This document shows positions 31,457 through 52,841 of a DNA stretch of 64,000 nt, piece after piece; positions within the stretch are counted from its first letter, which is position 1; each line of letters begins with the position of its first letter. The stretch covers positions 66,752-130,751 of the forward strand of contig JAQTYZ010000003.1 in assembly GCA_028688055.1 (NCBI GenBank), read 5' to 3'. Made by a program: the position numbers and the translations under genes. The notes under the pieces were generated by a model. The model was given only the letters and a program-made list of their open reading frames with translations. It did not search any database and had not been told where the DNA came from. Source of the stretch: Patescibacteria group bacterium (GTDB lineage: Bacteria > Patescibacteriota > Patescibacteriia > Buchananbacterales > UBA6539).

Positions 31457-31486
31457 AAAATTAGTTTAAGATTAGGAGAGTTAAGC

Positions 31487-31540
31487 TCCGAGGTAGCTCA
31501 ACGGTAGAGTCCCGCCACGGCGGGATTAATCCATTGGTCC
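31487..31540 (+). pseudogene. Degenerate 5' fragment of tRNA-Asn (acceptor and D-arm intact, anticodon stem replaced by a GC mini-hairpin)
   Basis: TCCGAGGTAGCTCAACGGTAGAG is identical to the intact tRNA-Asn at 31807; it is followed by TCCCGCCACGGCGGGA and TTAATCCATTGGTCC. Confidence 0.5.
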
Positions 31541-31548
31541 TTGATTAT

Positions 31549-31794
31549 ATGAACTATTTCGTTTATATTATTAAGAATCAACAAGGCGCAATTTATATCG
31601 GTCAGACAAAGAATATTTTTGTCAGACTGAAGGTTCACAATTCGAACGAGGTTTTTTCAACGAAAAATCAAGGTCCCTGGAAACTTATTTATTTTGAAGA
31701 GTTCACATCTCGATCAGACGCCATGGCACGAGAAAAGCAGTTAAAAAGTTTTAAGGGTGGTAATGCTCTAAAAAAATTAATTGATAAAGTTTAA
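31549..31794 (+). CDS. Small GIY-YIG nuclease family protein (YhbQ/UPF0213-like); ATG 31549 preferred over the TTG at 31534
   Basis: YFVYIIKN...AIYIGQT (GIY/YIG), conserved Arg and EKQLK helix; 81 aa. Confidence 0.75.
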   Translation: MNYFVYIIKNQQGAIYIGQTKNIFVRLKVHNSNEVFSTKNQGPWKLIYFEEFTSRSDAMAREKQLKSFKGGNALKKLIDKV

Positions 31795-31878: not shown

Positions 31879-32103
31879 GAGGCTGGACGCGTTCCCGGAG
31901 ACCGGTTTGAGGCAGTCAACTTAGCCAAAAATAGTAGTCGTCAGTTTGTGTCCAATCCTAGGTGAGAAATCAGTTTAGAACCAGATAGCAAATTAGAGTC
32001 CAGTGATTAGGTAATACATAAGTGTTCTCGGCGACTGGCTCCGCCGATCAAAGGCTTGAAAATTTAAAACTGAATATTTATACTTCAAAAAAGAGTCATG
32101 TGC

Positions 32104-32396
32104 TCCGAGGTAGCTCAATGGTAGAGCAGCGGACTGTAGAATGATGCAGCCCCTAGGAGAAATCCTAAGGTGAAAATTTCGGGATAACGGTGAAGGCTAC
32201 GTTCGTCAGTTGACGGATATGCGAACACCGTGGGAACTCTGATCCGCCAGATGGCAGATCGGGGAGCGCCGTAGAGACTAGATACCGAAACACCTACATC
32301 CAAAATTGGATACGGTGATGATATAGTCCATCCCCCAACGAAAGTTGAGGACAAGATGTAATCCGTTGGTTCCGGGTCCGAGTCCCGGCCTCGGAG
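32104..32396 (+). tRNA. tRNA-Asn (GTT) interrupted by a 221-nt group I intron (32138-32358) in the anticodon loop
   Basis: Exons rebuild the same scaffold as the 31807 gene with anticodon loop CUGU|UAA; intron follows a U, ends with G, and carries R-like AGAGACTAGA and S-like GATATAGTCC (P7 pairing) plus a GAAA-capped P9. Confidence 0.7.
32138..32358 (+). other. Group I self-splicing intron (no ORF)
   Basis: P1 CUGU/GCAG with U.G at the 5' splice site, conserved R/S elements, omega-G at 32358. Confidence 0.7.
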
Positions 32397-32460
32397 CAGA
32401 TGACTTTTTGAAAAGAATTTTGAATAAAATAAGGCCAATCAGGTAGGTATACCGACGGCT

Positions 32461-33750
32461 TTATTTTACTAGAGAGACCTTTTGGTTTTTAAGATAGAGT
32501 TCAGTTTTTAAACAAGCCAATATCTCCCGCTTCTCATCGCGAGTTCCTTCGGCTAGTAAGTATTTAACGTATTCCTTGATGTCCACTTCGGACATTTTTA
32601 TTTCATCTCGGTTATTACCCTTGGAAATTAGCGTATTAAATTTTTGGTAACGCTCCATTTCCTGCTGCATTTTTTTCAGCGTACCCAACTTATCCAGTTC
32701 AATCTGATCAATTATTTTGAGCAACTCCTCGATTAATGTTTCTTCTCTGACGTACGCTTCTTTGCAATTGTAATCTTTGAATCGGTTACAGTGGTAGTAG
32801 ACGTAGCGTTTTATTGAACCATCATGTTTGATCTTTTTGAATTTATCTTCGGCTGTGACCCCTGATCCGCATGAACCACACTTAATCATGTTGGCGAAGT
32901 CAAATTCTTTGGTACCAGGTTTTAATTTCGGTGCTACCTCGAGATGTATCTTGACTTCGTTAAATAGATCTTTACTGATTAATGCCTGATGCGAACCTTT
33001 GTAGAATATTCCTGAACCCACCGGATACTCAAACTCGCCGTAATAGAAATGATTTTTGAGCATATTGTAAATACTACTCAATGCTATTTTCTTTCCGCTC
33101 CTCGTCCTAAATCCGATTTCATTCATCCATCGCTTGAGTGCCCGACCACTGTATCCTTGGTAGGCAACCTTTTCAAACATTTGAGTGATTACCGGCGCTC
33201 GCTTTGGATCAAGATATACTTTCCGCTGACCCTTCGTTTCGCCAATTCCGTGGAGGTAACCAATCGGAGGATAGCCTGGTCGCCAGCCCTGTTCACATTT
33301 GGCGCGAAGCCCTCGTTTAACATTCACTCCCTTGGCATCGTTTTCTAGTTTGGCAGTACTACCTAGGATCATCAACAAGAATTTTTCGTTCGGTGAATTA
33401 CCAAAGGTTTGTCCGTAGGTTTTTATCTGCTTCAAGATTCCCTGATCCATAAAATCAATGAGCTTGCCAAGGTCACCGGCGTTTCTGCTCAACCTATCAG
33501 GTGCCCAAGTTAAAATGGCGTTGTATTTTTCAGTTCGCAATGCCTCAACCATTTTATTAAATACCGGTCGTTTACCCGAATCTTTAGCTGAATGAGACTC
33601 CTCAAATGTCTCAAGGATTTCAATATTTTCTCGTTTGGCCACTACCGCCATTTCTTTATTCTGTGTTGGGATAGAAAGCTGTTGGAGTTCGTCAGACTCC
33701 GTGCTTTTCCGGCTATAGAGGCAATACCTCAAATTTTGTTCTAAGTCCAT
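32461..33750 (-). CDS. Large serine recombinase (resolvase-domain integrase)
   Basis: YSRKSTESDELQ catalytic Ser motif, DRLSRN, recombinase domain, zinc ribbon CGSCGS...YYHC, coiled-coil tail; adjacent to tRNA genes. Confidence 0.85.
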   Translation of the reverse strand: MDLEQNLRYCLYSRKSTESDELQQLSIPTQNKEMAVVAKRENIEILETFEESHSAKDSGKRPVFNKMVEALRTEKYNAILTWAPDRLSRNAGDLGKLIDFMDQGILKQIKTYGQTFGNSPNEKFLLMILGSTAKLENDAKGVNVKRGLRAKCEQGWRPGYPPIGYLHGIGETKGQRKVYLDPKRAPVITQMFEKVAYQGYSGRALKRWMNEIGFRTRSGKKIALSSIYNMLKNHFYYGEFEYPVGSGIFYKGSHQALISKDLFNEVKIHLEVAPKLKPGTKEFDFANMIKCGSCGSGVTAEDKFKKIKHDGSIKRYVYYHCNRFKDYNCKEAYVREETLIEELLKIIDQIELDKLGTLKKMQQEMERYQKFNTLISKGNNRDEIKMSEVDIKEYVKYLLAEGTRDEKREILACLKTELYLKNQKVSLVK

Positions 33751-34035
33751 ATTATTGATGGTTATTACTTATCAACTACATGGATGACGCACCGGTGGCT
33801 GGGTGTCCAGTTCCCATTGTAGGTAAACTGTAGGTAACTTAAAATCGATATTTTGGCTTTACTTTGGTTAATTTTTTTGGTATTTTATATGTAGTGAATC
33901 TGATTAATACTTGTTGAATAATTAGGCGCAACATAACTTATTTGCCTATAGGTTTTGCGCTGTTAATGAATAGATCAGTAAAAGCCCTTCTTATGATTAC
34001 GATTTTGAAGTTAAAATCGGAAAACAAAAAATAAT

Positions 34036-34950
34036 GTGGCATTATTTAAAATAATCGGCTCAACCGTAAAAAAAATCACCGCAAAAGAGCTTGACTTGGA
34101 GAAAAACCTGCAGACGCTTTTTGAAAATAATCTGGAGGAGTTATTGAACATTTTTTTTCTATCTCATGAGCATTCAACTGGCTTCGGTGGTAGAATTGAC
34201 ACACTCGGCATAGACAAGGATGGTGCGCCCTGCATTATTGAATACAAAAAAAATCAGAACAACAATGTTATCAATCAGGGACTTGCTTACCTTTATTGGC
34301 TGTTAGATCACAAAGCCGATTTTGAGAAAATTTGTCGGAATAATAAAATTGGTATCGAAATCGATTGGGATTCTCCCCGAGTTATTTGCGTAGCTGAAAG
34401 ATACAACAATTTTGATCTGGATACGGTCAACGTTTTGCCGATTAATGTTGAGCTTTGGCGCTACCGTATTTACGACGAAAATATTCTCTTTTTAGAGCCG
34501 GAGAATTTCCAGAAAGTTCGAATATCTACGGCCAGTATTATGCGGAAGACGAAGTATGATAGGGAAAAGCAGGAAATTATCCAAAAAAATTATTCGGTGG
34601 GAGAGCATCTTGCAAAAGCAGGTGAAGACATTAAATCGCTGTTTTTGAAGTTGCGCGAGAAAATAATCTCACTCGACACCGAGATTAAAGAAGATCCACA
34701 AAAAAACTACGTGGCTTATAAGTTATCAACGAATTTTGCGGACGTGGAAATCTACCGCAATCAACTTAAAATTTTCCTGAATGTAAAAAGCGGCCAGCTT
34801 AATAATCCTGATTCCATTGCCCGTGATATGGAAAATCCAAGGCACATCGGTCACCACGGCAATGGCGACTATGAATTAAAGCTGGAAAGCGATGAAGATA
34901 TGGATAAGGTGTTTTCACTTATCAAGCAAAGCTACGATCTGAATAAATAA
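34036..34950 (+). CDS. PD-(D/E)xK nuclease-superfamily protein (NucS/DUF91-like core), candidate restriction endonuclease (GTG start)
   Basis: GRIDTLGIDKDGAPCIIEYKK (D...ExK); directly upstream of an EcoRI-family MTase. Confidence 0.45.
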   Translation: MALFKIIGSTVKKITAKELDLEKNLQTLFENNLEELLNIFFLSHEHSTGFGGRIDTLGIDKDGAPCIIEYKKNQNNNVINQGLAYLYWLLDHKADFEKICRNNKIGIEIDWDSPRVICVAERYNNFDLDTVNVLPINVELWRYRIYDENILFLEPENFQKVRISTASIMRKTKYDREKQEIIQKNYSVGEHLAKAGEDIKSLFLKLREKIISLDTEIKEDPQKNYVAYKLSTNFADVEIYRNQLKIFLNVKSGQLNNPDSIARDMENPRHIGHHGNGDYELKLESDEDMDKVFSLIKQSYDLNK

Positions 34951-34954
34951 TATT

Positions 34955-36025
34955 ATGAGTACTCGATCACTAAATAGAAGTCTTCATAAGGCAAGCCAGG
35001 CAAAAAATGATGAGTTTTATACTCAGCTTGGCGATATTGCTAATGAGCTCCGGCATTACCGAGACCAGCTTAGCGGCAAGGTGATTCTTTGTAATTGCGA
35101 TGATCCATTTGAGAGCAACTTTTTCAAATATTTTGCAGCTAATTTCAACACGCTTGGGCTCAAGAAGCTCATCGCCACTAGTTATCAGAAGTCGCCGATT
35201 GTCGGCGGACAACTATCGCTTCTTGATATTGAAGGGCTCAAGCCGGAAGGGAGAGAACCGTATGTGGTGGAGATCAACGAAGTGCCGGATATGAATAGCG
35301 ACGGAGCGATAAGTTTGGATGATGTAGAGCATCTGCTTAAGCACAATAAAAATATCGCGATGCCGCTTAAAGGTGGCGGTGATTTTCGAAGTAAAGAATG
35401 TATTGAGCTTCTTAAAAAAGCCGATATTGTCGTCACCAATCCACCGTTCTCGCTCTTTCGGGAATATGTCGCACAGTTAATTGAGCATAACAAAAAATTT
35501 CTTATAATCGGCAGCAAAAACGCTATCACATACAAGGAAATTTTTAAGCTCATAAAAGAAAACAAATTGTGGCTTGGATATGGCTTTGCGGCCGGAAACG
35601 CATTTTTCAAAATTCCGGCAGAGAAAGCGCGCGAATTTGCGGCTGGTGTATATGATTCAAAAACTGGCCTTGTAAAGTTTCGTAATGTTGGATGGTTCAC
35701 CAACCTTTATGTTGATAAATCCGAAGATCCGATCACGCCCTATCTCACCTATGAGCAGGGACGCAAGAAAGGGCTTTATCCGAAATATGACAACTATGAC
35801 GCTATTGAAGTTTCGAAAGTCGCAGAAATTCCAAGTGATTACAAAGGCGTTATGGGCGTGCCTATAACGTTCTTAGACAAATGGGCACCCGAAAGCGGCA
35901 TAGAGATAGTCAAATTCAGAAAAGGCGATGATGATAAAGACCTAGCGTTTACGAGAGAGAGAGAGAGAGTACAACCGTACTTCAGAATACTCATTCGCTA
36001 TCGTCGGGCAAACAGGAGTCATTGA
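34955..36025 (+). CDS. EcoRI-family N6-adenine DNA methyltransferase
   Basis: N-terminal LHKA..NDEFYTQ and ILCNCDDPFESNFFKYFAANF are characteristic of the M.EcoRI family (from memory of the family); NPPF motif IV; (GA)8 tract 57 nt before the stop. Confidence 0.65.
   Translation: MSTRSLNRSLHKASQAKNDEFYTQLGDIANELRHYRDQLSGKVILCNCDDPFESNFFKYFAANFNTLGLKKLIATSYQKSPIVGGQLSLLDIEGLKPEGREPYVVEINEVPDMNSDGAISLDDVEHLLKHNKNIAMPLKGGGDFRSKECIELLKKADIVVTNPPFSLFREYVAQLIEHNKKFLIIGSKNAITYKEIFKLIKENKLWLGYGFAAGNAFFKIPAEKAREFAAGVYDSKTGLVKFRNVGWFTNLYVDKSEDPITPYLTYEQGRKKGLYPKYDNYDAIEVSKVAEIPSDYKGVMGVPITFLDKWAPESGIEIVKFRKGDDDKDLAFTRERERVQPYFRILIRYRRANRSH
35953..35969 (+). repeat. (GA)8 microsatellite inside the MTase 3' coding region
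   Basis: CGAGAGAGAGAGAGAGAGTAC; a +/-2 nt change switches to an alternative, longer C-terminus. Confidence 0.9.
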
Positions 36026-36229
36026 GCCAGATGGAATCTGTATTGAGTACAAGGCGGGCAGGCCGTACATTAAGGGACAAAGGAAGTATGCGAGATTATT
36101 TATTAAGCAAAAACAAATTTGAAATCCTTGGCATCGCAAACTCTGCGCGATGGATAGGATACAAATTATATACGATTATAGATGGCCGAAAAATTTACAA
36201 TAGGATTATAATTAGACGAAGATAATAAT

Positions 36230-37327
36230 ATGAATATAGAACTCAAAAATATCAAAATACGCGACGTAGTGAAGGGCTACAAAGACAGTGGCGAGAGCGG
36301 CGTGGTTGGTTACGGCGGCAAACTAAACATTCGTCCGGCGTTTCAGCGCGAGTTTATTTACGGCCAGAAAGAGCGCGACGCTGTTATAAGGACAGTACGG
36401 TCTAGCTTCCCGCTCAACACAATGTATTGGTCGGTGGACAGAGACGGCGGCTTTGAACTCATGGATGGACAACAGCGCACCATTTCTATTTGCCAATATG
36501 TCACCGAGATTATCCCAATAAAGTTTGATGACGGCTACGAACTGGCATTTAACAATTTGACCACCGATCAGCAAGAGAAGATTTTGAATTATGACCTCTC
36601 CGTCTATATCTGCGAAGGAACGGAAAGCGAAAAACTTGCATGGTTTCGGACGATCAATATCGCAGGCAAGCCATTAACCGATCAGGAACTCTTAAACGCC
36701 ATGCACACTGGGCCGTGGCTTGCCGATGCCAAACGCTGGTTTAGCAAGACAGGCGGACCGGCGTATCAGATTGGCGAAAATTATGTAAACGGCTCGCCGA
36801 TTCGCCAAGATTATCTGGAAAAGGCGCTTGACTGGATTTCGGATGGAAAGATTGAGAATTATATGAGCCGCCACCAGCAAGACAAAGACGCGCAGGAATT
36901 GTGGCAGTATTTTCAAGAAGTCGTAGCATGGGTTGAGCGCGTATTCCCCGAGTATCGAAAAATTATGAAGGGCTTAGAATGGGGGCGATTTTACAATGAG
37001 CACAAGGGCGATAAATTAAATGCGGCAAGCTTGGAAAAACGAATTGCGGGATTGATTGAAGATGACGAAGTAGATAATAAGAAAGGTATTTATGAATATC
37101 TTTTGACCGGAAACGAGAAGACGCTCAATCTGCGCGCCTTTGATGAAAAGACGAAAGTTAAACAGTACGAGAAACAGAAAGGAATTTGCCCGACATGTAA
37201 GAAACATTTTGAAATTGATGAAATGGAAGCTGATCACATTGTTCCATGGAATCAAGGTGGAAAAACAATGGAGAAAAATTGCCAGATGCTGTGCAAACAG
37301 GACAATAGGACTAAGTCTGGGAAATAA
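36230..37327 (+). CDS. DUF262 (ParB-like NTPase) - HNH nuclease fusion, GmrSD-like type IV restriction candidate
   Basis: RPAFQREFIY and DGQQRTISI (DUF262 signatures); C-terminal HNH DHIVPWNQGG...C..C..DN. Confidence 0.7.
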   Translation: MNIELKNIKIRDVVKGYKDSGESGVVGYGGKLNIRPAFQREFIYGQKERDAVIRTVRSSFPLNTMYWSVDRDGGFELMDGQQRTISICQYVTEIIPIKFDDGYELAFNNLTTDQQEKILNYDLSVYICEGTESEKLAWFRTINIAGKPLTDQELLNAMHTGPWLADAKRWFSKTGGPAYQIGENYVNGSPIRQDYLEKALDWISDGKIENYMSRHQQDKDAQELWQYFQEVVAWVERVFPEYRKIMKGLEWGRFYNEHKGDKLNAASLEKRIAGLIEDDEVDNKKGIYEYLLTGNEKTLNLRAFDEKTKVKQYEKQKGICPTCKKHFEIDEMEADHIVPWNQGGKTMEKNCQMLCKQDNRTKSGK

Positions 37328-37330
37328 AAA

Positions 37331-38698
37331 ATGAGTATGAACATGGAAAATTCAAAATGGAAAAAGAAAGATATCGCTATTAAAGACCTTTTGCTGTGGG
37401 ATGAAAACGCGCGTTTTTCTGATCAGTATTTTGACCTCTCGGAAGAAGACCTGTTGAAACATTTCTTAATAAGTAAATTTCAGCTACTTAAACTTGCTGG
37501 CGAGATGGAAAAAGATGCCGACCTTCCTCAGTTGGAAAAAATTGTTGTCTGGCGTTCCAATGATCGTAATATAATTCTTGAGGGCAATAGACGAATCGCC
37601 GCATATAAATTACTGGCAAATCCGAAATTGGCCGGTGTTCAAGAAAGTAAATTTTCAAAAATTGGGTCAAAGGTTGGGATTTCCGAAGACTTCGAAGTTG
37701 AATGTCTTGTCACTGAAGATTTGGAACAAGGTTACCGATTTATCGAGAGAAAGCACCTTAATCAAAACAACGAAGTTTCTTGGGGTTCAAATGAGATCGC
37801 CCATCATAAAGATCGCCGAGGAAAGGCCGGTGAAAAAGAACTAATAAGAGTCGGTATTACGAAAGTTGTTAATGACCTCGAAATGGCAAACGAGTTAAAG
37901 GAAGCCGTCTTGGGACCGGGATATGTAACTACTTTTTGGAGACTGACCGGACAAACACCCGCCCAGCAGTATTTTGGCTTCTCTTTCGGTGATGATAAAA
38001 AGTTGAAAATAAAAGATGGTGACTTCGATAAAAAACTGAAAGTTATTGTCTGGGATGTACTCAAAAACGGCCAGTATAAGGGAAAGTTGTTTTCTCGTTT
38101 AAATAATGCGGAAATATCGGATTATTTGAAAAATATTTCTGATAAAGATTACAATCGAGCATCGCAAGAGATAGAAGAGGCAGAAAACAATAAACAGAGT
38201 GATCTTTTCGGGAAAGCGAGCGTTGCTACGAACTACAATTTTAGGATACGAAAAACTCCGGTTACTAAAACTGGAAACGACCTTTTCGGCAGGACTTTAG
38301 CTTTACAGTCCGGCCATGTAAATGATTTATATCGCGCCCTTGCAGATATTGATAAAAAAAATCAAGGTAACGATGCGGTTTTGCCGTTTTTGGGTATGGC
38401 CCTGCGTCTTTTAGTAGAAGTTGCCGCTCGCGTGCATTATGACAATAATGGCGACAAAGAAAAAGCTAAAAAGGATCAAATTTGCGAGATATTTTTGAAA
38501 GAAGCGAAGAAGAAACTAAATCAGCATCGAAAAAATGATATTTCCCTTACTAATGATTGGCTTTCAGATAAAAGAAATCTTAGTGCTATTTTGGACAAGT
38601 ATGCTCATGGCCAAATTGTTTGTAAACGTGCCGATGTATTAAAAGATTCATACATTGTCGCTGATATTTTAGATTTCTACTTCGAAAAGAAGTCTTAA
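37331..38698 (+). CDS. ParB-like nuclease-domain protein, function unknown
   Basis: LLLWDENARF and ILEGNRRIAAYKLL resemble the ParB/Srx N-terminal domain. Confidence 0.45.
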   Translation: MSMNMENSKWKKKDIAIKDLLLWDENARFSDQYFDLSEEDLLKHFLISKFQLLKLAGEMEKDADLPQLEKIVVWRSNDRNIILEGNRRIAAYKLLANPKLAGVQESKFSKIGSKVGISEDFEVECLVTEDLEQGYRFIERKHLNQNNEVSWGSNEIAHHKDRRGKAGEKELIRVGITKVVNDLEMANELKEAVLGPGYVTTFWRLTGQTPAQQYFGFSFGDDKKLKIKDGDFDKKLKVIVWDVLKNGQYKGKLFSRLNNAEISDYLKNISDKDYNRASQEIEEAENNKQSDLFGKASVATNYNFRIRKTPVTKTGNDLFGRTLALQSGHVNDLYRALADIDKKNQGNDAVLPFLGMALRLLVEVAARVHYDNNGDKEKAKKDQICEIFLKEAKKKLNQHRKNDISLTNDWLSDKRNLSAILDKYAHGQIVCKRADVLKDSYIVADILDFYFEKKS

Positions 38699-38703
38699 TT
38701 TAT

Positions 38704-39552
38704 ATGCAAAAGATACCACGAAAAAGAAACCAAAAATTACACTGTAGCCCGTTAAGATATCCCGGAGGGAAGACTTTTTTATTTCCTTTCTTTGATAATG
38801 TCATAAAGGATAACGGATTGGAAAAGGTTACCTATGTCGAACCGTTCGCCGGTGGTGCCGGTGCGGCACTGGTTTTGCTACTATCCGGGAAAGTTGATCG
38901 CATTGTGATTAATGACTTGGATAAAGCTATCTATGCTTTTTGGAAATCGTCTATATTTAATCCCGACAAATTTATAAAAAAGATAAAATCAACCCCGGTA
39001 ACCATTAATGAATGGAAAAAGCAAAAGGCGATTTATAATAACCCGAAGGCTAGTCTCTTTGATCTCGGTTTTGCCACTTTTTTTCTCAATAGAACTAATA
39101 CGTCCGGCATTTTGGACGGCGGACCTATTGGAGGATTAAGACAAAAAGGTAAATACAAAATCGATGCCAGATTTAACAAGGACACTTTGATAGAACGAAT
39201 ACAGCGGATAGCCACACATAAAAAGAAAATATCAGTTTTTAATAAGGACGGACTTAGGTTGATTGGTGAGTATTTAAATAAAAAGAATACATTTATATAT
39301 CTTGACCCACCTTATTTTGAAAAAGGCGCAACACTTTATCTAAACCACTATAAAAAAGAAAATCACGAGGCTCTGGCTAAAAAGCTAAACGATAACCCTG
39401 ATGCCTTTTGGCTGTTAACGTATGATAACAAAAAAGAAATTAAGTCACTTTATTCGAACAGACATATCATCAACTTTTCGCTGAATTACAATGCCTACAA
39501 ATCCCGCAATGGTAGAGAAGTTATGATTATGTCAGATGCGCTCATAAGGTAA
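38704..39552 (+). CDS. Dam-family (D12 class) N6-adenine DNA methyltransferase
   Basis: LRYPGGKTFL SAM-binding N-terminus, DPPY catalytic motif (YLDPPYF). Confidence 0.8.
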   Translation: MQKIPRKRNQKLHCSPLRYPGGKTFLFPFFDNVIKDNGLEKVTYVEPFAGGAGAALVLLLSGKVDRIVINDLDKAIYAFWKSSIFNPDKFIKKIKSTPVTINEWKKQKAIYNNPKASLFDLGFATFFLNRTNTSGILDGGPIGGLRQKGKYKIDARFNKDTLIERIQRIATHKKKISVFNKDGLRLIGEYLNKKNTFIYLDPPYFEKGATLYLNHYKKENHEALAKKLNDNPDAFWLLTYDNKKEIKSLYSNRHIINFSLNYNAYKSRNGREVMIMSDALIR

Positions 39553-39603
39553 AGCAGGTAGACAAACTGTAGATAACCTAAAAGCTCAAAATATGCTAGA
39601 ATA

Positions 39604-39632
39604 TTGACAATATTACGATATTGTGGTATTGT
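39604..39632 (+). promoter_or_regulatory. Sigma-70-like promoter for the DGR target gene
   Basis: TTGACA, 17-nt spacer, TGgTATTGT extended -10. Confidence 0.45.
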
Positions 39633-39719
39633 AATATATCCGATTACCAACGTGGTAAAAGGTCCCCAGCCTCGGGGAGAGGCAGATACCAACTGGCCAT
39701 CGGCTAGGAGGATAGGAAA

Positions 39720-40685
39720 ATGATGTGTACTTTGACGGGAGTTTCCGACCTTGACGAGTTGTCTCATGCCCATTGGAAGGCGTTAGCCAACAAATGCGGC
39801 GGTCTGGAAAATGTTATTGCCGTCCTGCAAGGAGAGCAAGAGATTACCCTCCGGGAAATCATCAAGCTCCTCATTGACCGGAACGGTCGTGGCATCCCCG
39901 ACAAGTCGGTGGTGAAGTCGAATGTGTGCGACGCAAACCGCGCATACTACTTTGACCGCCTGCCGGACGATTACGACTTTGCCGCCATGCTGTCATTGTG
40001 GCAGGAGCGCTTCAAGCAGAATCCGGGCATGGATGCCAAGGAATTCCGCGAGCGTATCGCTGGCATCCGGGGAATGATTGCGGCTAACCGCCAGATCAGA
40101 AATCTGGACACACCAAACGCCGCGCCGTGGTTCCCGCTTATCCTGCCGCAGATTCCGTTGCAAAAGCCCGAAGGCGACGAAGCAGTCGAGGCCAAACAAA
40201 TGGACTACGGCACATTGCTCGAAGACACCTTGTTGCCCGCCGTCGAGGCGAGTTACATTGCGGCCTACCCCCAGCGGCAGTTTATCAACTACCGCAAGGG
40301 TGAGCTGTCAGGACAGGTGACGATCGTCGAGGAACGTCACGCCAAGCTCTACCAAGACTTGGCCAACGGTCCGATTATCGGGATTTTGTTCCCGACAGCG
40401 TTGCACGGCTTCAGCCCGTTTGCCCAGCGCGAGATGATCACCCTTATGCCAGAGCACTGCTCACTTGAGGGACCGATGGACATGGGTGTCGCCGAAACGC
40501 TGTACACACGGCAACTGTCGCGTGACAACAACACGCCCGTGAAAGACTGCTCTGCAGTCCAATGGCGGGACCCCGAGTACTCGCTGTACTTCAACGCCGA
40601 CGACGACGAGCTCGGGTTCGACTACGGGGACGACCTCGGCCTTGCGTACGGCGGCTCTGCGGGTGGGGTGTTCTTCCGCGGGTAG
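39720..40685 (+). CDS. DGR target (variable) protein; the C-terminal 40 codons form the variable repeat
   Basis: GC-rich ORF whose 3' 120 nt (40563-40682) is an A-mismatch-only copy of the TR at 41050; RBS GGAGGA. Confidence 0.75.
   Translation: MMCTLTGVSDLDELSHAHWKALANKCGGLENVIAVLQGEQEITLREIIKLLIDRNGRGIPDKSVVKSNVCDANRAYYFDRLPDDYDFAAMLSLWQERFKQNPGMDAKEFRERIAGIRGMIAANRQIRNLDTPNAAPWFPLILPQIPLQKPEGDEAVEAKQMDYGTLLEDTLLPAVEASYIAAYPQRQFINYRKGELSGQVTIVEERHAKLYQDLANGPIIGILFPTALHGFSPFAQREMITLMPEHCSLEGPMDMGVAETLYTRQLSRDNNTPVKDCSAVQWRDPEYSLYFNADDDELGFDYGDDLGLAYGGSAGGVFFRG
40563..40682 (+). repeat. DGR variable repeat (VR)
   Basis: 120 nt aligned to TR with 16 substitutions, every one at a TR adenine. 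Confidence 0.85.
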
Positions 40686-40756
40686 TGAATTGGTCTTTGA
40701 CCTTTGGTACCTTGATACTTTTGGTGCCTTGGTCAGATCACGCTACTTATTTAATC

Positions 40757-40799
40757 GAGAGGGTTCAAAGCTTCGGCTGCGAACCCTCTCTTCTTTTTG
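40757..40799 (+). terminator. Rho-independent terminator after the DGR target gene
   Basis: GAGAGGGTTC..(UUCG mini-loop)..GAACCCTCTC plus T-run. Confidence 0.6.
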
Positions 40800-41049
40800 T
40801 AAAATTTGGTATAGTACAATATGAAAGTAGGCAGTGCGTCTTGGTTTACGGATCAAGGCCGTCGAAATCCTTTGTTTCTGCAAAGTGCCAGAATTTGATA
40901 GCTCATGGGTTATCAGAGCGTGCATCCTAAGAAATAAAGACACTACGTGTTTTTCTCTAGTGCCTAGTATGGGCCAAATAAAATTCAGAAGATGGCTCAC
41001 GAGTGAGACAGAGTCGCTTCGGTGCTTTGGATGGAGAACAACACTTTTC

Positions 41050-41169
41050 TGGCAGGACCCCGAGTACTCGCTGTACTTCAACGCCAACGACGACAAGCTC
41101 AAGTTCGACAACAGGAACAACCTCGGCAATGCGAACGACAACTATGCGGGTGGGGTGTTCTTCCGCGGG
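41050..41169 (+). repeat. DGR template repeat (TR), rich in AAC codons
   Basis: TR-only adenines at all 16 VR/TR differences (AAC to GAC/TAC/GGC etc.); shared GC-rich 3' end GCGGGTGGGGTGTTCTTCCGCGGG (IMH-like). Confidence 0.85.
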
Positions 41170-41187
41170 CAGTGTCTTTACTTCAAG

Positions 41188-41210
41188 GAGACCTCCGTAT
41201 CGGAGGTCTC
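41188..41210. other. Perfect 10-bp hairpin GAGACCTCCG-TAT-CGGAGGTCTC directly 3' of TR
   Basis: Seen in sequence; may act as a DGR RNA structural element or as the avd terminator. Confidence 0.6.
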
Positions 41211-41215
41211 TTATG

Positions 41216-51044: not shown

Positions 51045-52051
51045 CGACGCAAGAATTTTTTGATGGCCTGCTTGACCATGTCGATTTGAAGGTCAGCGAT
51101 AAGGAGCGACGACTGATCGAAACTAAACAGAATGAGCTGCGCGAAAAGTTGCGCGAATTCCTGGATTTAGAGGATGATTTCCTTACGGGGTCATACCGTC
51201 GCAATACAATCATTAAGCCGAGGAATCCATCGGAAAAATTTGATGTCGATGTGTTTGTTGCTTTCAACAAGGAAGATTACGAGAATAAGGACTTAGCTGA
51301 GCTTCGGCAAACGGTAATTGACGCTTTGCATAATATAAATAGTCAGTACCCAGAGCTGGGGATCTCGCGAATTAATGAAAGCCAGCGTCGTTCCGTTAGA
51401 GTTGAATTTGGGAATAATTTTCAAATTGATGTCGTTCCGGCGATTCAAATTGAAAAAGATGTTCACTACAAGATTTTTGACAAGAGGACACTCTCGGCAG
51501 TTAAGTCGAATCCAAAACTGCACGGTGAATTACTGACCAAGGCTAACGAGCATGCGAAAGGTAAATTAGTCCCTTTAATAAAAATGTTACGGGCGTGGAA
51601 GCGTCAAGAGTGCCCATACGTTAAATCATTTCATATTGAGTTACTGGCGGTTGAGATTTTAGGATCGTCAAATTTCGATTCCTATTCCGAAGGGGCTGAT
51701 ATATTTTTTGATAAGGCAAGGGAGTATGCGAAGAGTGCTTGCCTTAAGGATCCGGCAAACGCCGATGTCACTATTGATGACTACCTCGATGATGACGGCA
51801 AGAGGCAAGACTTTATTAACCTAATTAACACAGAATTTCAATTGTCAGAAGAAGCAAGGAAATTAGAATCGGTCGGGGACGAAGATGGTGCAGTCGCTAA
51901 GTGGCAAGAAATTTTCTATGACGAAGATGAAAAAACTGCGGCGGCGATTAGGTCTGGTAACTTTTACGTGGGTGCTGGTGGAGTGGTAGTAGGCAATAAT
52001 GATGAGCAAAAGTATGGGAGAATTGAATCGCCCCGTTCCTACCGAGTCTAA
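51041..52051 (+). CDS. cGAS/DncV-like nucleotidyltransferase (CD-NTase, SMODS domain)
   Basis: GSYRRNTIIKPRNPSEKFDVDV (GS...DxD) and third Asp in QIDVVPA; helical domain LIKMLRAWK. Confidence 0.65.
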   Translation: MTTQEFFDGLLDHVDLKVSDKERRLIETKQNELREKLREFLDLEDDFLTGSYRRNTIIKPRNPSEKFDVDVFVAFNKEDYENKDLAELRQTVIDALHNINSQYPELGISRINESQRRSVRVEFGNNFQIDVVPAIQIEKDVHYKIFDKRTLSAVKSNPKLHGELLTKANEHAKGKLVPLIKMLRAWKRQECPYVKSFHIELLAVEILGSSNFDSYSEGADIFFDKAREYAKSACLKDPANADVTIDDYLDDDGKRQDFINLINTEFQLSEEARKLESVGDEDGAVAKWQEIFYDEDEKTAAAIRSGNFYVGAGGVVVGNNDEQKYGRIESPRSYRV

Positions 52052-52841
52052 CCCGCAATGGTACGATACATTACCAGATCGCCTTGAGGAAGAAATTCGG
52101 TTAATGAAAGAATTTCATCCTTCATTTGATCTTAGCCATTCTGCCGGGGAAAGTATTTTTTGGACAGGATATGCGAAAGCATTGCGAAGCGATGGTTCAG
52201 TAATTACAGTATTGAAAATTAAAATAGAATGTCCAGCAGCATATCCTTTTTTATTTCCCCTGGTTTATGATTCTGAGAACATTTTGTTTAACCGCGGTTG
52301 CCCGCACCTAAGTAATAGCAGCGGCGGTTTTTTCACTCTTTGTTACGGGAATAGGCTCGATCCCCAGTTGGATTTTCAAGGGTCTACACGTGTTAAGGAC
52401 GTAGTAAACTACGTATGCATTTTTCTTGCCCGCCAATGGCATTTTGAAAGGTATGGTTTTTGGCCTGACGGTCAACCTCACGGTGAATTAGCCTTTTTAT
52501 ATCATGAGATTAAGCAAGACGTTTTGAATCCTGATGATTTATGCCCCTGTGGCCTAACTGAAAAAACATACAGACATTGTCATATGCCCGCTGTTTTAAA
52601 CGTTCTCAACCAATGGGACCTATCCCTAAAAGGAGAAATCAGGAAACGTGTTGATCAGGTTAGTGGTAGAAATGACCCATGCCCTTGTGGGAGCGACAAA
52701 AAATTTAAAAAATGTTGTTCGCCAAAACTAAATTATTCAAGTAAGTTTTTTTTATTCATGAAATTTCCAGAATTTTTTGACTTTGATTTGTTCAGGCGTG
52801 ATAATATATTAAATGCTTTGTGTGGCATGAAAACTGAATGA
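51999..52841 (+). CDS. E2 (UBC)-like protein with two C-terminal SEC-C zinc motifs; Cap2-like partner of the CD-NTase
   Basis: YPFLFPLVY...GCPHL...GGFFTLCYGN resembles the E2 YPFKPP/HPN/Cys core; CPCG...C.H and CPCGSDKKFKKCC. Confidence 0.4.
   Translation: MMSKSMGELNRPVPTESNPQWYDTLPDRLEEEIRLMKEFHPSFDLSHSAGESIFWTGYAKALRSDGSVITVLKIKIECPAAYPFLFPLVYDSENILFNRGCPHLSNSSGGFFTLCYGNRLDPQLDFQGSTRVKDVVNYVCIFLARQWHFERYGFWPDGQPHGELAFLYHEIKQDVLNPDDLCPCGLTEKTYRHCHMPAVLNVLNQWDLSLKGEIRKRVDQVSGRNDPCPCGSDKKFKKCCSPKLNYSSKFFLFMKFPEFFDFDLFRRDNILNALCGMKTE

What the first reader, a model, noticed from the sequence alone, without database searches (positions are those of the whole stretch)
33821..33838. 17-nt motif AGGTA(GACA)AACTGTAG(A/G)TAA recurs at three module boundaries of the island
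Copies lie at 33821-33838 (just upstream of the recombinase start and of the R-M cargo), 39556-39577 (immediately after the Dam stop and before the DGR) and 42668-42685 (immediately after the RT stop). The last two bracket the entire DGR cassette (~3.1 kb) like direct repeats. Three copies of a 17-mer are not expected by chance in 64 kb. The candidate roles are: recombination or crossover sites for the adjacent serine recombinase, allowing cassette gain or loss of the DGR; footprints of cassette insertion; or a shared promoter or operator.
Basis: seen in the sequence. Interest (0 to 1): 0.55.

Follow-up and report, generated by a model that had tools for sequence, protein, structure and literature searches.

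The report
Junction motif of a Patescibacteria island
The thrice-repeated 20-base word is real and belongs to a widespread family of mobile islands in Patescibacteria (CPR bacteria), where it sits next to the serine-recombinase gene, just upstream of a promoter, at the place where new cargo such as the restriction genes and the retroelement here has been added.

Summary
There are three co-oriented copies of GTAGRYAAACTGTAGRTAA(C/G) at 33819-33838, 39558-39577 and 42666-42685, and none elsewhere in the 64 kb (0 of 100 shuffles give three).

The word is two 8-nt direct half-sites (GTWGRYAA) 11 nt apart. It is not a generic promoter word. In public genomes it occurs almost only in one family of Patescibacteria integrative islands.

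In those islands it lies 8-10 nt from a conserved bipartite element (ATGACGC-N14-GTCYAG) upstream of the large serine recombinase gene. A sigma70-like -35 usually begins 6-8 nt after it. That promoter normally drives the LOOT RNA or a second, unlisted structured RNA.

Relatives L035 and L130 have a single copy. Their homology to the window stops and restarts exactly at copies 1 and 3. So the R-M and DGR blocks (33840-42664) are an insertion bounded by the motif. The closest DGR relatives elsewhere carry no motif.

Best reading (about 0.45): a protein-binding control site at about -42 to -61 that also serves as the joint for cargo exchange.

A dedicated serine-recombinase crossover site is not excluded (about 0.2), but the motif has no dyad symmetry and is short.

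The binding protein is unknown.

The parts
33819..33838 (+). Motif copy 1, GTAGGTAAACTGTAGGTAAC. This is the recombinase-proximal copy, at the head of the R-M module.
   Evidence: It is homologous to the single copy of L035 and L065 together with the upstream element.
39558..39577 (+). Motif copy 2, GTAGACAAACTGTAGATAAC. It lies between the Dam stop and the DGR.
42666..42685 (+). Motif copy 3, GTAGGTAAACTGTAGATAAG. It contains the RT stop codon and heads the LOOT RNA module.
   Evidence: Homology to L035 and L130 restarts at 42665.
33784..33810 (+). Conserved bipartite element ATGACGC-N14-GTCCAG between the recombinase start and copy 1. The spacing is rigid. It occurs only once in the window.
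   Evidence: It is present in 52 of 78 unbiased relatives, and the gap to the motif is 8-10 nt.
32461..33750 (-). Large serine recombinase gene (Resolvase, Recombinase and zinc-ribbon domains). Its 3' end faces tRNA-Asn.
33858..33886 (+). Promoter-like site after copy 1 (TTTACT-17-TATTTT). The -35 is 20 nt after the motif, which is not the canonical spacing.
34036..39552 (+). Cargo module 1: DUF5655 protein, EcoRI-like methylase, GmrSD/HNH nuclease, an unknown protein and a Dam-type methylase.
   Evidence: Absent from L035 and L130.
39604..39632 (+). Promoter-like site after copy 2 (TTGACA-17-TATTGT with an upstream TG). The -35 is 27 nt after the motif.
39720..42669 (+). Cargo module 2: the DGR. 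It comprises the target gene with VR at 40563-40687, TR at 41050-41174, and an RT gene split at a (GA)12 tract.
42692..42720 (+). Promoter-like site at the canonical spacing after copy 3 (TTCGCA-17-TAGTAT). The -35 is 7 nt after the motif.
   Evidence: The same arrangement occurs in L008, L009, L019, L035 and L060.
42725..42753 (+). Second promoter-like site (TGGACA-17-TAAAAT) directly upstream of the LOOT RNA.
42771..42888 (+). LOOT RNA (Rfam RF03000, 80 bits). This is the resident downstream partner of the motif across the family.
33840..42664 (+). Segment present in the window but absent from relatives L035 and L130. It is the R-M plus DGR insertion, bounded by copies 1 and 3.

Best explanation
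The motif is a protein-binding control site of a family of Patescibacteria integrative islands. Those islands typically carry, in order, a LexA-like repressor gene, a ParB-methylase, a methylase, a TerS-like HTH protein, TerL, a variable cargo slot, a large serine recombinase and then a tRNA.

The motif consists of two 8-bp half-sites (GTWGRYAA) one helical turn apart. It sits in a rigid array: ATGACGC, 14 nt, GTCYAG, about 9 nt, half-site 1, 3 nt, half-site 2, 5-6 nt, then a -35 hexamer. That places it at about -42 to -61 of the first rightward promoter, which normally makes the LOOT RNA or another structured RNA, and back to back with the control region of the recombinase gene.

A factor bound there would set transcription of the rightward module and possibly of the recombinase gene. 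It could also block read-through from the module upstream. The factor's identity is not known. The recombinase is the only island protein that always accompanies the motif.

Because the motif is the one non-coding sequence shared by islands at this position, it has also served as the joint at which cargo was added. In this window two blocks (R-M and DGR) lie between the recombinase-side copy and the LOOT-side copy, which gives three co-oriented copies.

Shown: the motif's reality, its architecture, its specificity to the family, its spacing to promoters, and the insertion boundaries.

Inferred: protein binding, any effect on transcription, and the recombination mechanism.
For: Specificity. A scan of 185,579 species genomes for the 19-mer gave 63 loci. 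About 36 of these are Patescibacteria-type islands with the same recombinase, TerL module or LOOT RNA next to the motif. The other roughly 27 fit my own chance estimate of about 35.

Unbiased sample. Among 78 metagenome relatives of the recombinase, chosen without reference to the motif, 52 have the bipartite element. Of those 52, 19 have the full motif and 13 have only the promoter-proximal half-site. The gap between the bipartite element and the motif is always 8-10 nt, and positions G1, T2, G4, A7, A8 of both half-sites are invariant.

Promoter spacing. The best sigma70-like -35 starts 6-7 nt after the motif in 20 of 40 copies, and is second best there in 6 more. The hexamers differ between loci (TTTACT, TTCGCA, TTGATT, TTCCAA and others). 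In the unbiased set the promoter score peaks sharply at offsets 6-8.

LOOT linkage. LOOT RNA follows 48-58 or 87-101 nt downstream in 15 loci and the window.

Independence from the recombinase. Units of motif plus promoter also occur away from the recombinase gene (L028, L042, L058).

Insertion boundaries. Homology to L035 covers 33778-33839 and restarts at 42665. Homology to L130 starts at 42665.

Other multi-copy loci. All pairs are co-oriented, with extra DNA between them.
Against: No binding protein is identified.

The island's LexA-like gene has a different conserved upstream element and no motif.

Islands without TerS or LexA-like genes still have the motif.

Window copies 1 and 2 are not at the canonical distance from their best promoters (20 and 27 nt). 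So for these two copies a promoter role is weak, and copy 2 is more easily explained as a recombination joint.

Some islands keep the motif with no rightward promoter (L013, L046, L052). Others drive LOOT without it (L143, and LOOT placed after the recombinase stop).

All promoter calls are consensus matches only.
Confidence: 0.45

Rival explanations
1. The copies are dedicated recombination sites of the adjacent large serine recombinase. Circular cargo segments carrying one copy integrate at the recombinase-proximal copy and can be excised again. This would be like cassettes in an integron, or like SCC elements between Ccr-recognised direct repeats.
For: The motif is within about 100 nt of the recombinase start in nearly all family members.

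There are n+1 co-oriented copies for n extra modules in the window, L041, L008 and L026.

Insertion breakpoints lie exactly at the motif edges.

Upstream ORFs abut the next copy within 0-5 nt.

Cargo at this slot varies widely.

The motif is retained beside the recombinase gene even without a promoter.

Copies within the window differ at the R/Y positions, as expected if the incoming DNA brought its own copy.
Against: The motif has no dyad symmetry (6 of 20 positions match its reverse complement, read directly from the sequence). It is only 20 nt long, whereas known large-serine-recombinase sites are 40-50 bp imperfect palindromes (established knowledge).

The recombinase's 3' flank, not this region, faces tRNA genes, and L035 shares the tRNA-Asn site with the window.

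Half-sites are not enriched at that flank.

33 of 52 relatives with the bipartite element lack a full motif.

Arrays are rare and never exceed 3 copies.

The closest DGR relatives (80-83% and 72% nucleotide identity) sit in other chromosomal contexts without any motif.

No strain-level polymorphism was found.
Confidence: 0.2
2. The copies act as a transcriptional insulator or roadblock, like the stoperators of cluster A mycobacteriophages. An asymmetric site bound by an island factor, placed at the end of one module and co-oriented with transcription, would stop read-through into the next module. Its built-in stop codons in all three frames would also end translation.
For: Copies 2 and 3 lie at or within 5 nt of the stop codons of Dam and RT, with no terminator between.

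In L016, L032 and L042 an upstream ORF also ends at the motif.

All copies share one orientation.

The motif reads TAG, TAA, TAG, TAA in three different frames (read directly from the sequence).
Against: There are only 1-3 copies per island, against dozens for stoperators. No repressor is linked to the motif. Its fixed distance to a downstream -35 is not required by this model.
Confidence: 0.12
3. The motif is a site for a host or packaging factor: an IHF/HU-type bending site, a DnaA box, a LexA box, a pac site for the TerS-like protein, or an iteron.
For: The reverse complement of the T-type variant (TATCAACNNNTTA) fits the IHF consensus WATCAANNNNTTR, and TTATCTACA is 8 of 9 to a DnaA box (my reading of the sequence against textbook consensus sequences).

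The GTWG-N7-GTWG layout resembles the direct-repeat LexA box GTTC-N7-GTTC of Alphaproteobacteria.

The island encodes TerS-like and LexA-like proteins.
Against: The position that must be C in a DnaA box is A or T in all 19 unbiased copies and never the required base.

The LexA-like gene's own upstream region lacks the motif.

Islands with no TerS, TerL or LexA-like gene keep the motif.

The motif is absent from host intergenic regions of the window. The two intergenic single half-sites are not in this arrangement.

The conserved bases outside the IHF consensus are unexplained.
Confidence: 0.1
4. The copies have no function of their own. They are chance repeats, or neutral remnants of one local duplication.
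For: Copies 1 and 2 lack the canonical promoter spacing.
Against: 0 of 100 shuffles give three copies. The same word is conserved across islands whose recombinases are only about 50% identical and whose surrounding intergenic sequence is not alignable.
Confidence: 0.03

Closest known systems
Boundary sequences and moron junctions of lambdoid phages
   Same: A short conserved non-coding sequence sits between functional modules. It coincides with regulatory signals and marks the points where different cargo is joined in related elements.
   Different: Here the sequence is a defined pair of 8-bp direct repeats at a fixed distance from a -35 hexamer and from a bipartite element next to a serine recombinase gene. 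The elements are Patescibacteria islands without capsid genes in the stretches examined.
res sites of serine resolvases, especially Sin resH (site I inverted repeat plus site II direct repeats, upstream of the recombinase gene)
   Same: It lies immediately upstream of a serine recombinase gene in a divergent control region. A roughly 27-bp bipartite element with rigid spacing is followed by direct repeats one helical turn apart.
   Different: The enzyme is a large serine recombinase with a zinc-ribbon domain, a type not known to use accessory sites. The dyad symmetry of the bipartite element is weak. Copies 2 and 3 lack that element. Binding has not been tested.
Integron attI/attC cassette arrays, and SCCmec integration-site repeats recognised by Ccr large serine recombinases
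   Same: A recombinase gene reads away from an array of co-oriented cargo modules, and each boundary carries a copy of a short sequence. ORFs run right up to the next copy.
   Different: There is no tyrosine integrase and no hairpin-forming attC. The modules carry their own promoters. Arrays hold at most 3 copies. Unlike SCC repeats, the motif is inside the island and not at the chromosomal junction.
Direct-repeat activator sites such as pho boxes (PhoB) or lambda CII sites, and UP elements
   Same: There are two phased direct repeats about 11 bp apart, immediately upstream of or next to the -35 hexamer, at about -42 to -61.
   Different: The sequence is unrelated and not A/T-tract-like. No response regulator or CII-like gene is linked. 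It is absent from host promoters in the window.
Stoperators of cluster A mycobacteriophages
   Same: An asymmetric site, in one orientation relative to transcription, lying in tiny intergenic gaps or overlapping stop codons.
   Different: The copy number is far lower, and no immunity repressor has been shown to bind.

Membership tests
Large serine recombinase att site (attP/attB/attL/attR) | A 40-50 bp site with imperfect dyad symmetry around a central dinucleotide | tested here: not met
   The motif is 20 nt and a direct repeat. Only 6 of 20 positions match its reverse complement (read directly from the sequence).
Large serine recombinase att site (attP/attB/attL/attR) | Located at the junction between the element and the host DNA in the integrated state | tested here: not met
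   The copies are internal to the island. The tRNA genes face the recombinase's 3' end in the window, L035, L060, L007, L116, L061 and L043.
Large serine recombinase att site (attP/attB/attL/attR) | Bound and recombined by the cognate recombinase | not testable with these tools
   This needs EMSA and in vitro recombination.
Integron cassette site (attC/attI) | Tyrosine integrase IntI next to attI | tested here: not met
   The adjacent gene is a serine recombinase (PF00239, PF07508, PF13408).
Integron cassette site (attC/attI) | attC is an imperfect inverted repeat that folds as a single-strand hairpin | tested here: not met
   The motif contains no inverted repeat. No consensus structure was found for the region.
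Integron cassette site (attC/attI) | The same cassette is found in different arrays together with its site | tested here: not met
   The closest DGR relatives (L152, L153) have no motif at their borders. No nucleotide relatives of the R-M or DGR heads were found in 150 loci.
res site of serine resolvases (Tn3/Sin type) | Lies upstream of the recombinase gene in a divergent control region | tested here: met
   Copy 1 and the bipartite element lie 34-88 nt upstream of the start codon.
res site of serine resolvases (Tn3/Sin type) | A crossover subsite with inverted 12-bp repeats, plus accessory subsites | tested here: inconclusive
   ATGACGC-N14-GTCYAG has rigid spacing, but only a weak TGAC/GTCC dyad. 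The mean folding z-score is -0.6.
res site of serine resolvases (Tn3/Sin type) | Two complete sites in direct repeat are resolved | tested here: not met
   There is only one bipartite element in the window.
Upstream promoter element or class I activator site | Fixed position at about -40 to -60 relative to a sigma70-type promoter | tested here: met
   The -35 starts 6-8 nt after the motif in 26 of 40 copies (best or second best) and in 12 of 23 unbiased copies. Window copy 3 meets this. Copies 1 and 2 do not.
Upstream promoter element or class I activator site | Effect on transcription, and a bound factor | not testable with these tools
   This needs reporter assays and footprinting.
UP element (RNA polymerase alpha-CTD site) | A/T-tract composition and use at strong host promoters | tested here: not met
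   The motif is 35% G+C with invariant G and C positions. It has no copy outside the island in 64 kb.
DnaA box | TTWTNCACA with C at position 6 | tested here: not met
   The corresponding position is A or T (rarely C on the motif strand) and never the required base in 19 unbiased copies.
Operator of the island's LexA-like repressor | Also present at the repressor's own promoter (autoregulation) | tested here: not met
   None of the 10 relatives' LexA-like upstream regions, nor the window's own, has GTWG-N7-GTWG. They share a TGTCAAG element instead.
DGR cis element (part of the retroelement) | Travels with DGRs | tested here: not met
   The motif is present in islands without DGRs and absent from the closest DGRs.
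Structured RNA family (Rfam) | Match to a covariance model, or a conserved fold | tested here: not met
   No Rfam match was found at E<=1 in 33650-34050. No consensus structure was found.

The most novel reading that the evidence does not exclude
The motif, together with the neighbouring ATGACGC-N14-GTCYAG element, is the capture site of a cassette platform run by a large serine recombinase. Under this reading, Patescibacteria islands would gain and lose defence and diversification modules (R-M systems, DGRs, nucleases, small RNAs) by site-specific recombination at a 20-bp direct-repeat site. That would be functionally an integron analogue built on a different enzyme family, possibly helped by the linked LOOT RNA.
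Probability: 0.15. Interest if true: 0.8.

Novelty: new variant of a known kind. Interest (0 to 1): 0.55.

Why it matters
It defines a sequence landmark for a large island family that I did not find described. More than 579 recombinase relatives turned up in metagenomes. These islands live in Patescibacteria, organisms with tiny genomes in which gene gain is poorly understood.

The landmark marks the slot where restriction systems, DGRs, nucleases and small RNAs are inserted.

It also gives the orphan LOOT RNA a concrete genomic context: it sits next to a large serine recombinase gene, under a motif-flanked promoter. That makes its function testable.

If the motif proves to be a recombinase substrate, it would be a new type of short, asymmetric site for a large serine recombinase.

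Tried and rejected
Chance or a generic word: rejected.

Part of an RNA: there is no Rfam hit and no consensus fold. The hairpin I thought I saw around GTCCAG is only a weak average tendency.

Phage origin: megablast of the island against phage records found nothing. The five IMG/VR hits are one unrelated coding sequence.

DnaA box, UP element and LexA-like operator: rejected (see the membership test).

pac site for the TerS-like protein: weakened, because islands without TerS/TerL keep the motif.

attP of the recombinase: rejected for this window, because recombinase, motif and cargo are contiguous while the island is integrated.

attR or a tRNA-Asn 3' repeat at the right end: not found.

Half-sites at the recombinase 3' flank: not enriched, with 10 found against about 5 expected.

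Strain-level variants lacking the DGR or R-M: the only other contigs with identical proteins come from one run and have the same arrangement.

Cargo modules travelling with the motif: not seen.

The LOOT description in the source paper: the supplement is not held.

Full report
THE OBSERVATION

The window holds three co-oriented copies of a 19-20-nt word:
- GTAGGTAAACTGTAGGTAAC at 33819-33838
- GTAGACAAACTGTAGATAAC at 39558-39577
- GTAGGTAAACTGTAGATAAG at 42666-42685

The 13-nt core with up to one mismatch occurs only at these three places. The chance expectation is 0.18, and none of 100 shuffles gives three. Allowing three mismatches to the 17-mer or to the two-half-site pattern adds no convincing further copy.

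Read correctly, the word is two 8-nt direct repeats, GTAGRYAA, with an 11-nt period. Only about 20-26 nt are alike between the copies, and the flanks do not align.

THE SURROUNDINGS

The left of the window carries host genes: dnaG, rpoD, tRNA-Ser and tRNA-Asn. From there the order is as follows:
- A large serine recombinase gene at 32461-33750 on the - strand, whose 3' end faces a tRNA-Asn.
- Copy 1.
- A restriction/modification block at 34036-39552.
- Copy 2.
- A diversity-generating retroelement at 39720-42669. Its VR/TR pair is verified, with 16 of 17 differences at TR adenines.
- Copy 3.
- The LOOT RNA (Rfam RF03000) at 42771-42888.
- Three genes of unknown function.
- On the - strand, TerL, a TerS-like HTH protein, a methylase and a ParB-methylase.
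- A LexA-like S24 protein, a SMODS protein and a SEC-C protein.
- The host pheS gene.

An identical DGR target protein is recorded from a Patescibacteria group MAG.

SPECIFICITY TO ONE ISLAND FAMILY

A scan of one genome per species for GTAGRYAAACTGTAGRTAA gave 63 loci. From the pattern's information content I estimate about 35 chance hits, and about 27 hits are indeed unrelated sequences.

The other roughly 36 come from Patescibacteria MAGs and from TPA MAGs labelled 'uncultured Gammaproteobacteria'. They share the window's context. A recombinase homologue (49-78% identity) lies immediately to the left. A TerL/TerS/methylase block, a LOOT RNA, or both lie to the right. IMG/VR gave only one unrelated coding sequence.

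AN UNBIASED VIEW OF THE MOTIF

I searched metagenomes with an alignment of the recombinases, without using the motif. There were more than 579 relatives, and 80 loci were fetched.

- Of the 78 loci with enough upstream sequence, 52 have a bipartite element, ATGACGC-N14-GTC(C/T)AG, upstream of the recombinase start.
- Of those 52, 19 have the full motif, 13 keep only one exact half-site GTWGRYAAC, and 20 have neither.
- The gap from the bipartite element to the motif is always 8-10 nt.
- In the 19 full copies, G1, T2, G4, A7 and A8 of both half-sites are invariant.
- Position 3 is A or T, positions 5 and 6 are R and Y, and the 3-nt spacer varies.

So the conserved object is the pair of phased half-sites, not the exact 17-mer.

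The region has no consensus RNA structure, only a weak average tendency to pair around GTCCAG, and no Rfam match.

LINK TO PROMOTERS AND RNAS

Downstream of the motif, a sigma70-like promoter has its -35 hexamer starting 6-7 nt after the 19-mer.
- It is the best-scoring site there in 20 of 40 copies and the second-best in 6 more. The hexamers and spacers differ between loci.
- In the unbiased set the promoter score peaks sharply at offsets 6-8, with 12 of 23 copies scoring at least 8.
- This places the motif at about -42 to -61.

The transcript is usually LOOT RNA, which starts 48-58 nt after the motif, or 87-101 nt after it when a second promoter intervenes.

In another group of loci it is a different RNA of about 165 nt that Rfam does not list. 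In five sequences it has 47 predicted pairs, 15 of them with compensatory changes.

Units of motif plus promoter also occur away from the recombinase gene: beyond the ParB-methylase in L028, between two LOOT genes in L058, and after a nuclease gene in L042.

In the window, copy 3 has the canonical arrangement (TTCGCA-17-TAGTAT, then TGGACA-17-TAAAAT, then LOOT). Copies 1 and 2 have their best promoters 20 and 27 nt away.

LINK TO CARGO INSERTION

The nearest relatives have one motif copy and no R-M or DGR.
- L035 has a 72% identical recombinase and the same tRNA-Asn site.
- L130 has TerL, TerS-like and LexA-like proteins that are 81-83% identical.

BLASTN places L035 homology at window 33778-33839 and again from 42665. 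L130 homology starts at 42665. On L035 the two segments overlap by exactly the motif. The 8.8 kb from 33840 to 42664 is therefore an insertion bounded by copies 1 and 3, with copy 2 dividing it into two modules.

Other family members show the same pattern:
- L041 has a nuclease gene between two identical copies, each with a promoter.
- L008 has a 105-codon ORF between two copies of the whole 61-nt bipartite element plus motif.
- L026 has 2.7 kb between a recombinase-side copy and a variant copy that heads the unk362 module.

All such pairs are co-oriented.

Cargo at this slot varies across the family. It includes R-M systems and a superinfection-immunity gene in L107 and a DGR in the opposite orientation in L052.

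WHAT ARGUES AGAINST A CLASSICAL RECOMBINASE SITE

- The motif has no dyad symmetry and is 20 nt long. Characterised sites of large serine recombinases are 40-50 bp imperfect palindromes (established knowledge).
- The recombinase's 3' flank faces tRNA genes in many loci, which fits integration on that side. That flank is not enriched in half-sites.
- Many relatives lack the motif.
- The closest DGRs are L153 (80-83% nucleotide identity) and L152 (72%). Both lie in unrelated chromosomal contexts without any motif. So the motif belongs to the island slot, not to the DGR.
- No nucleotide relatives of the R-M or DGR heads exist among the fetched loci.
- No alternative arrangement was found for identical proteins.

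WHO BINDS THE MOTIF

This remains unknown.
- The LexA-like gene's upstream region carries a different conserved element (TGTCAAG) and no motif.
- Islands that have the recombinase and motif but no TerL, TerS or LexA-like gene within 10 kb exist (L107, L115, L148, L077).
- So the recombinase is the only island protein that always accompanies the motif. This is an inference, not evidence of binding.
- Resemblances to an IHF site, a DnaA box and the alphaproteobacterial LexA box are leads from memory. The DnaA box is excluded by the base at its critical position.

CONCLUSION

The motif is a real, conserved, family-specific cis element. Two properties are shown. First, it holds a fixed place in a rigid array between the recombinase gene's upstream element and a rightward promoter. 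Second, it coincides with the boundaries of inserted cargo.

I take the first as its selected function: a protein-binding control or insulator site. I take the second as a consequence: it is the conserved joint at which island DNA recombines.

I leave about one chance in five that it is itself a substrate of the serine recombinase. Copy 2, which is neither recombinase-proximal nor LOOT-proximal and has non-canonical promoter spacing, is the piece best explained by recombination.

COMPARISON WITH KNOWN SYSTEMS

It works most like the boundary or moron junctions of lambdoid phages combined with a direct-repeat activator or operator site. Its layout recalls the res site of Sin-type resolvases, and its array recalls integron or SCC cassette boundaries.

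It fails the defining features of each that could be tested (see the membership test). I therefore file it as a new variant rather than as a member of any of them.

Noticed in passing
window 42127-42150 (RT gene 41564-42669) and 35953-35968 (EcoRI-like methylase 34955-36025): These are the only two (GA)n tracts in the 64 kb, and both lie inside island cargo genes. The DGR RT is split by a frameshift at (GA)12. Removing one GA unit, or adding two, restores a single 367-codon ORF that ends at the TAG inside motif copy 3. A one-unit change at (GA)8 extends the methylase from 356 to 422 codons. This looks like slipped-strand phase variation of a DGR and of a methylase. The closest DGR (L153) also has its RT called in two pieces.
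   Followed up: partly
window 42771-42888; loci L046, L080, L089, L091, L108, L117 and 15 others: The orphan LOOT RNA (RF03000) is consistently linked to the large serine recombinase gene of these islands. It lies either divergent from the gene behind the motif and promoter, or directly after the recombinase stop codon. That context may help explain what LOOT does.
   Followed up: partly
L014, L041, L047, L056, L081 (also L042, L116), directly after the motif plus a TTTACT-17-TATATT promoter: A conserved structured RNA of about 165 nt starts with TTAAGTGCGAAAC and ends with GGTCGGGTGTCCGTTTTT. Rfam 15 does not list it. Five sequences give 47 predicted pairs, 15 with compensatory changes. It precedes genes for small membrane or secreted proteins, so it could be a leader or a small RNA.
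   Followed up: partly
window 32091-32399 (intron about 32127-32350); also 31474-31530 and 31534-31794: A second tRNA-Asn(GUU) copy next to the recombinase gene is interrupted in the anticodon loop by a group I intron (RF00028, 45.7 bits, E 3e-10, just under the gathering score of 50). Upstream lie a 5' tRNA fragment and a short ORF that I read as GIY-YIG-like, which was not tested.
   Followed up: partly
window 32400-53200; loci L013, L028, L065, L074, L081, L130 and others: The island family has a syntenic core of a LexA-like repressor, a ParB-methylase, a methylase, a TerS-like HTH protein, TerL and a serine recombinase. No capsid or portal gene was seen in the stretches examined. It may be a satellite-like or defective element of Patescibacteria. 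More than 579 recombinase relatives exist in metagenomes, but none were found in IMG/VR with the motif.
   Followed up: partly
window 33784-33810 and 52 of 78 relatives: The bipartite element ATGACGC-N14-GTC(C/T)AG upstream of the recombinase start is more widespread than the motif and has rigid spacing. It does not look like a sigma70 promoter. On the recombinase strand it reads CTGGAC-N14-GCGTCAT, loosely like an ECF-type -35/-10 pair. Its function is unknown.
   Followed up: partly
window 49560-49680: A long inverted repeat of about 27 nt per arm (AAAAACCCACAAGCGACTAATGAATCG ... CGGATTCATTAATCGTTCGCGGGTTTTT) lies between the ParB-methylase operon and the LexA-like gene. The LexA-like genes of relatives share a TGTCAAG element upstream of their -35.
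   Followed up: no
window 51041-52841: A SMODS/DncV-like nucleotidyltransferase and a protein with a SEC-C motif follow the LexA-like gene at the right edge of the island. This is a possible CBASS-like defence pair.
   Followed up: no
L015, L027, L067 (Crocinitomix MAG) and L018, L020, L030, L036, L040: Unrelated genomes hit the same 19-mer for other reasons. One is a repeat present on three contigs of a single Bacteroidota MAG. Several others are tandem arrays of 11-nt units (GTAGATAAACT)n.
   Followed up: no
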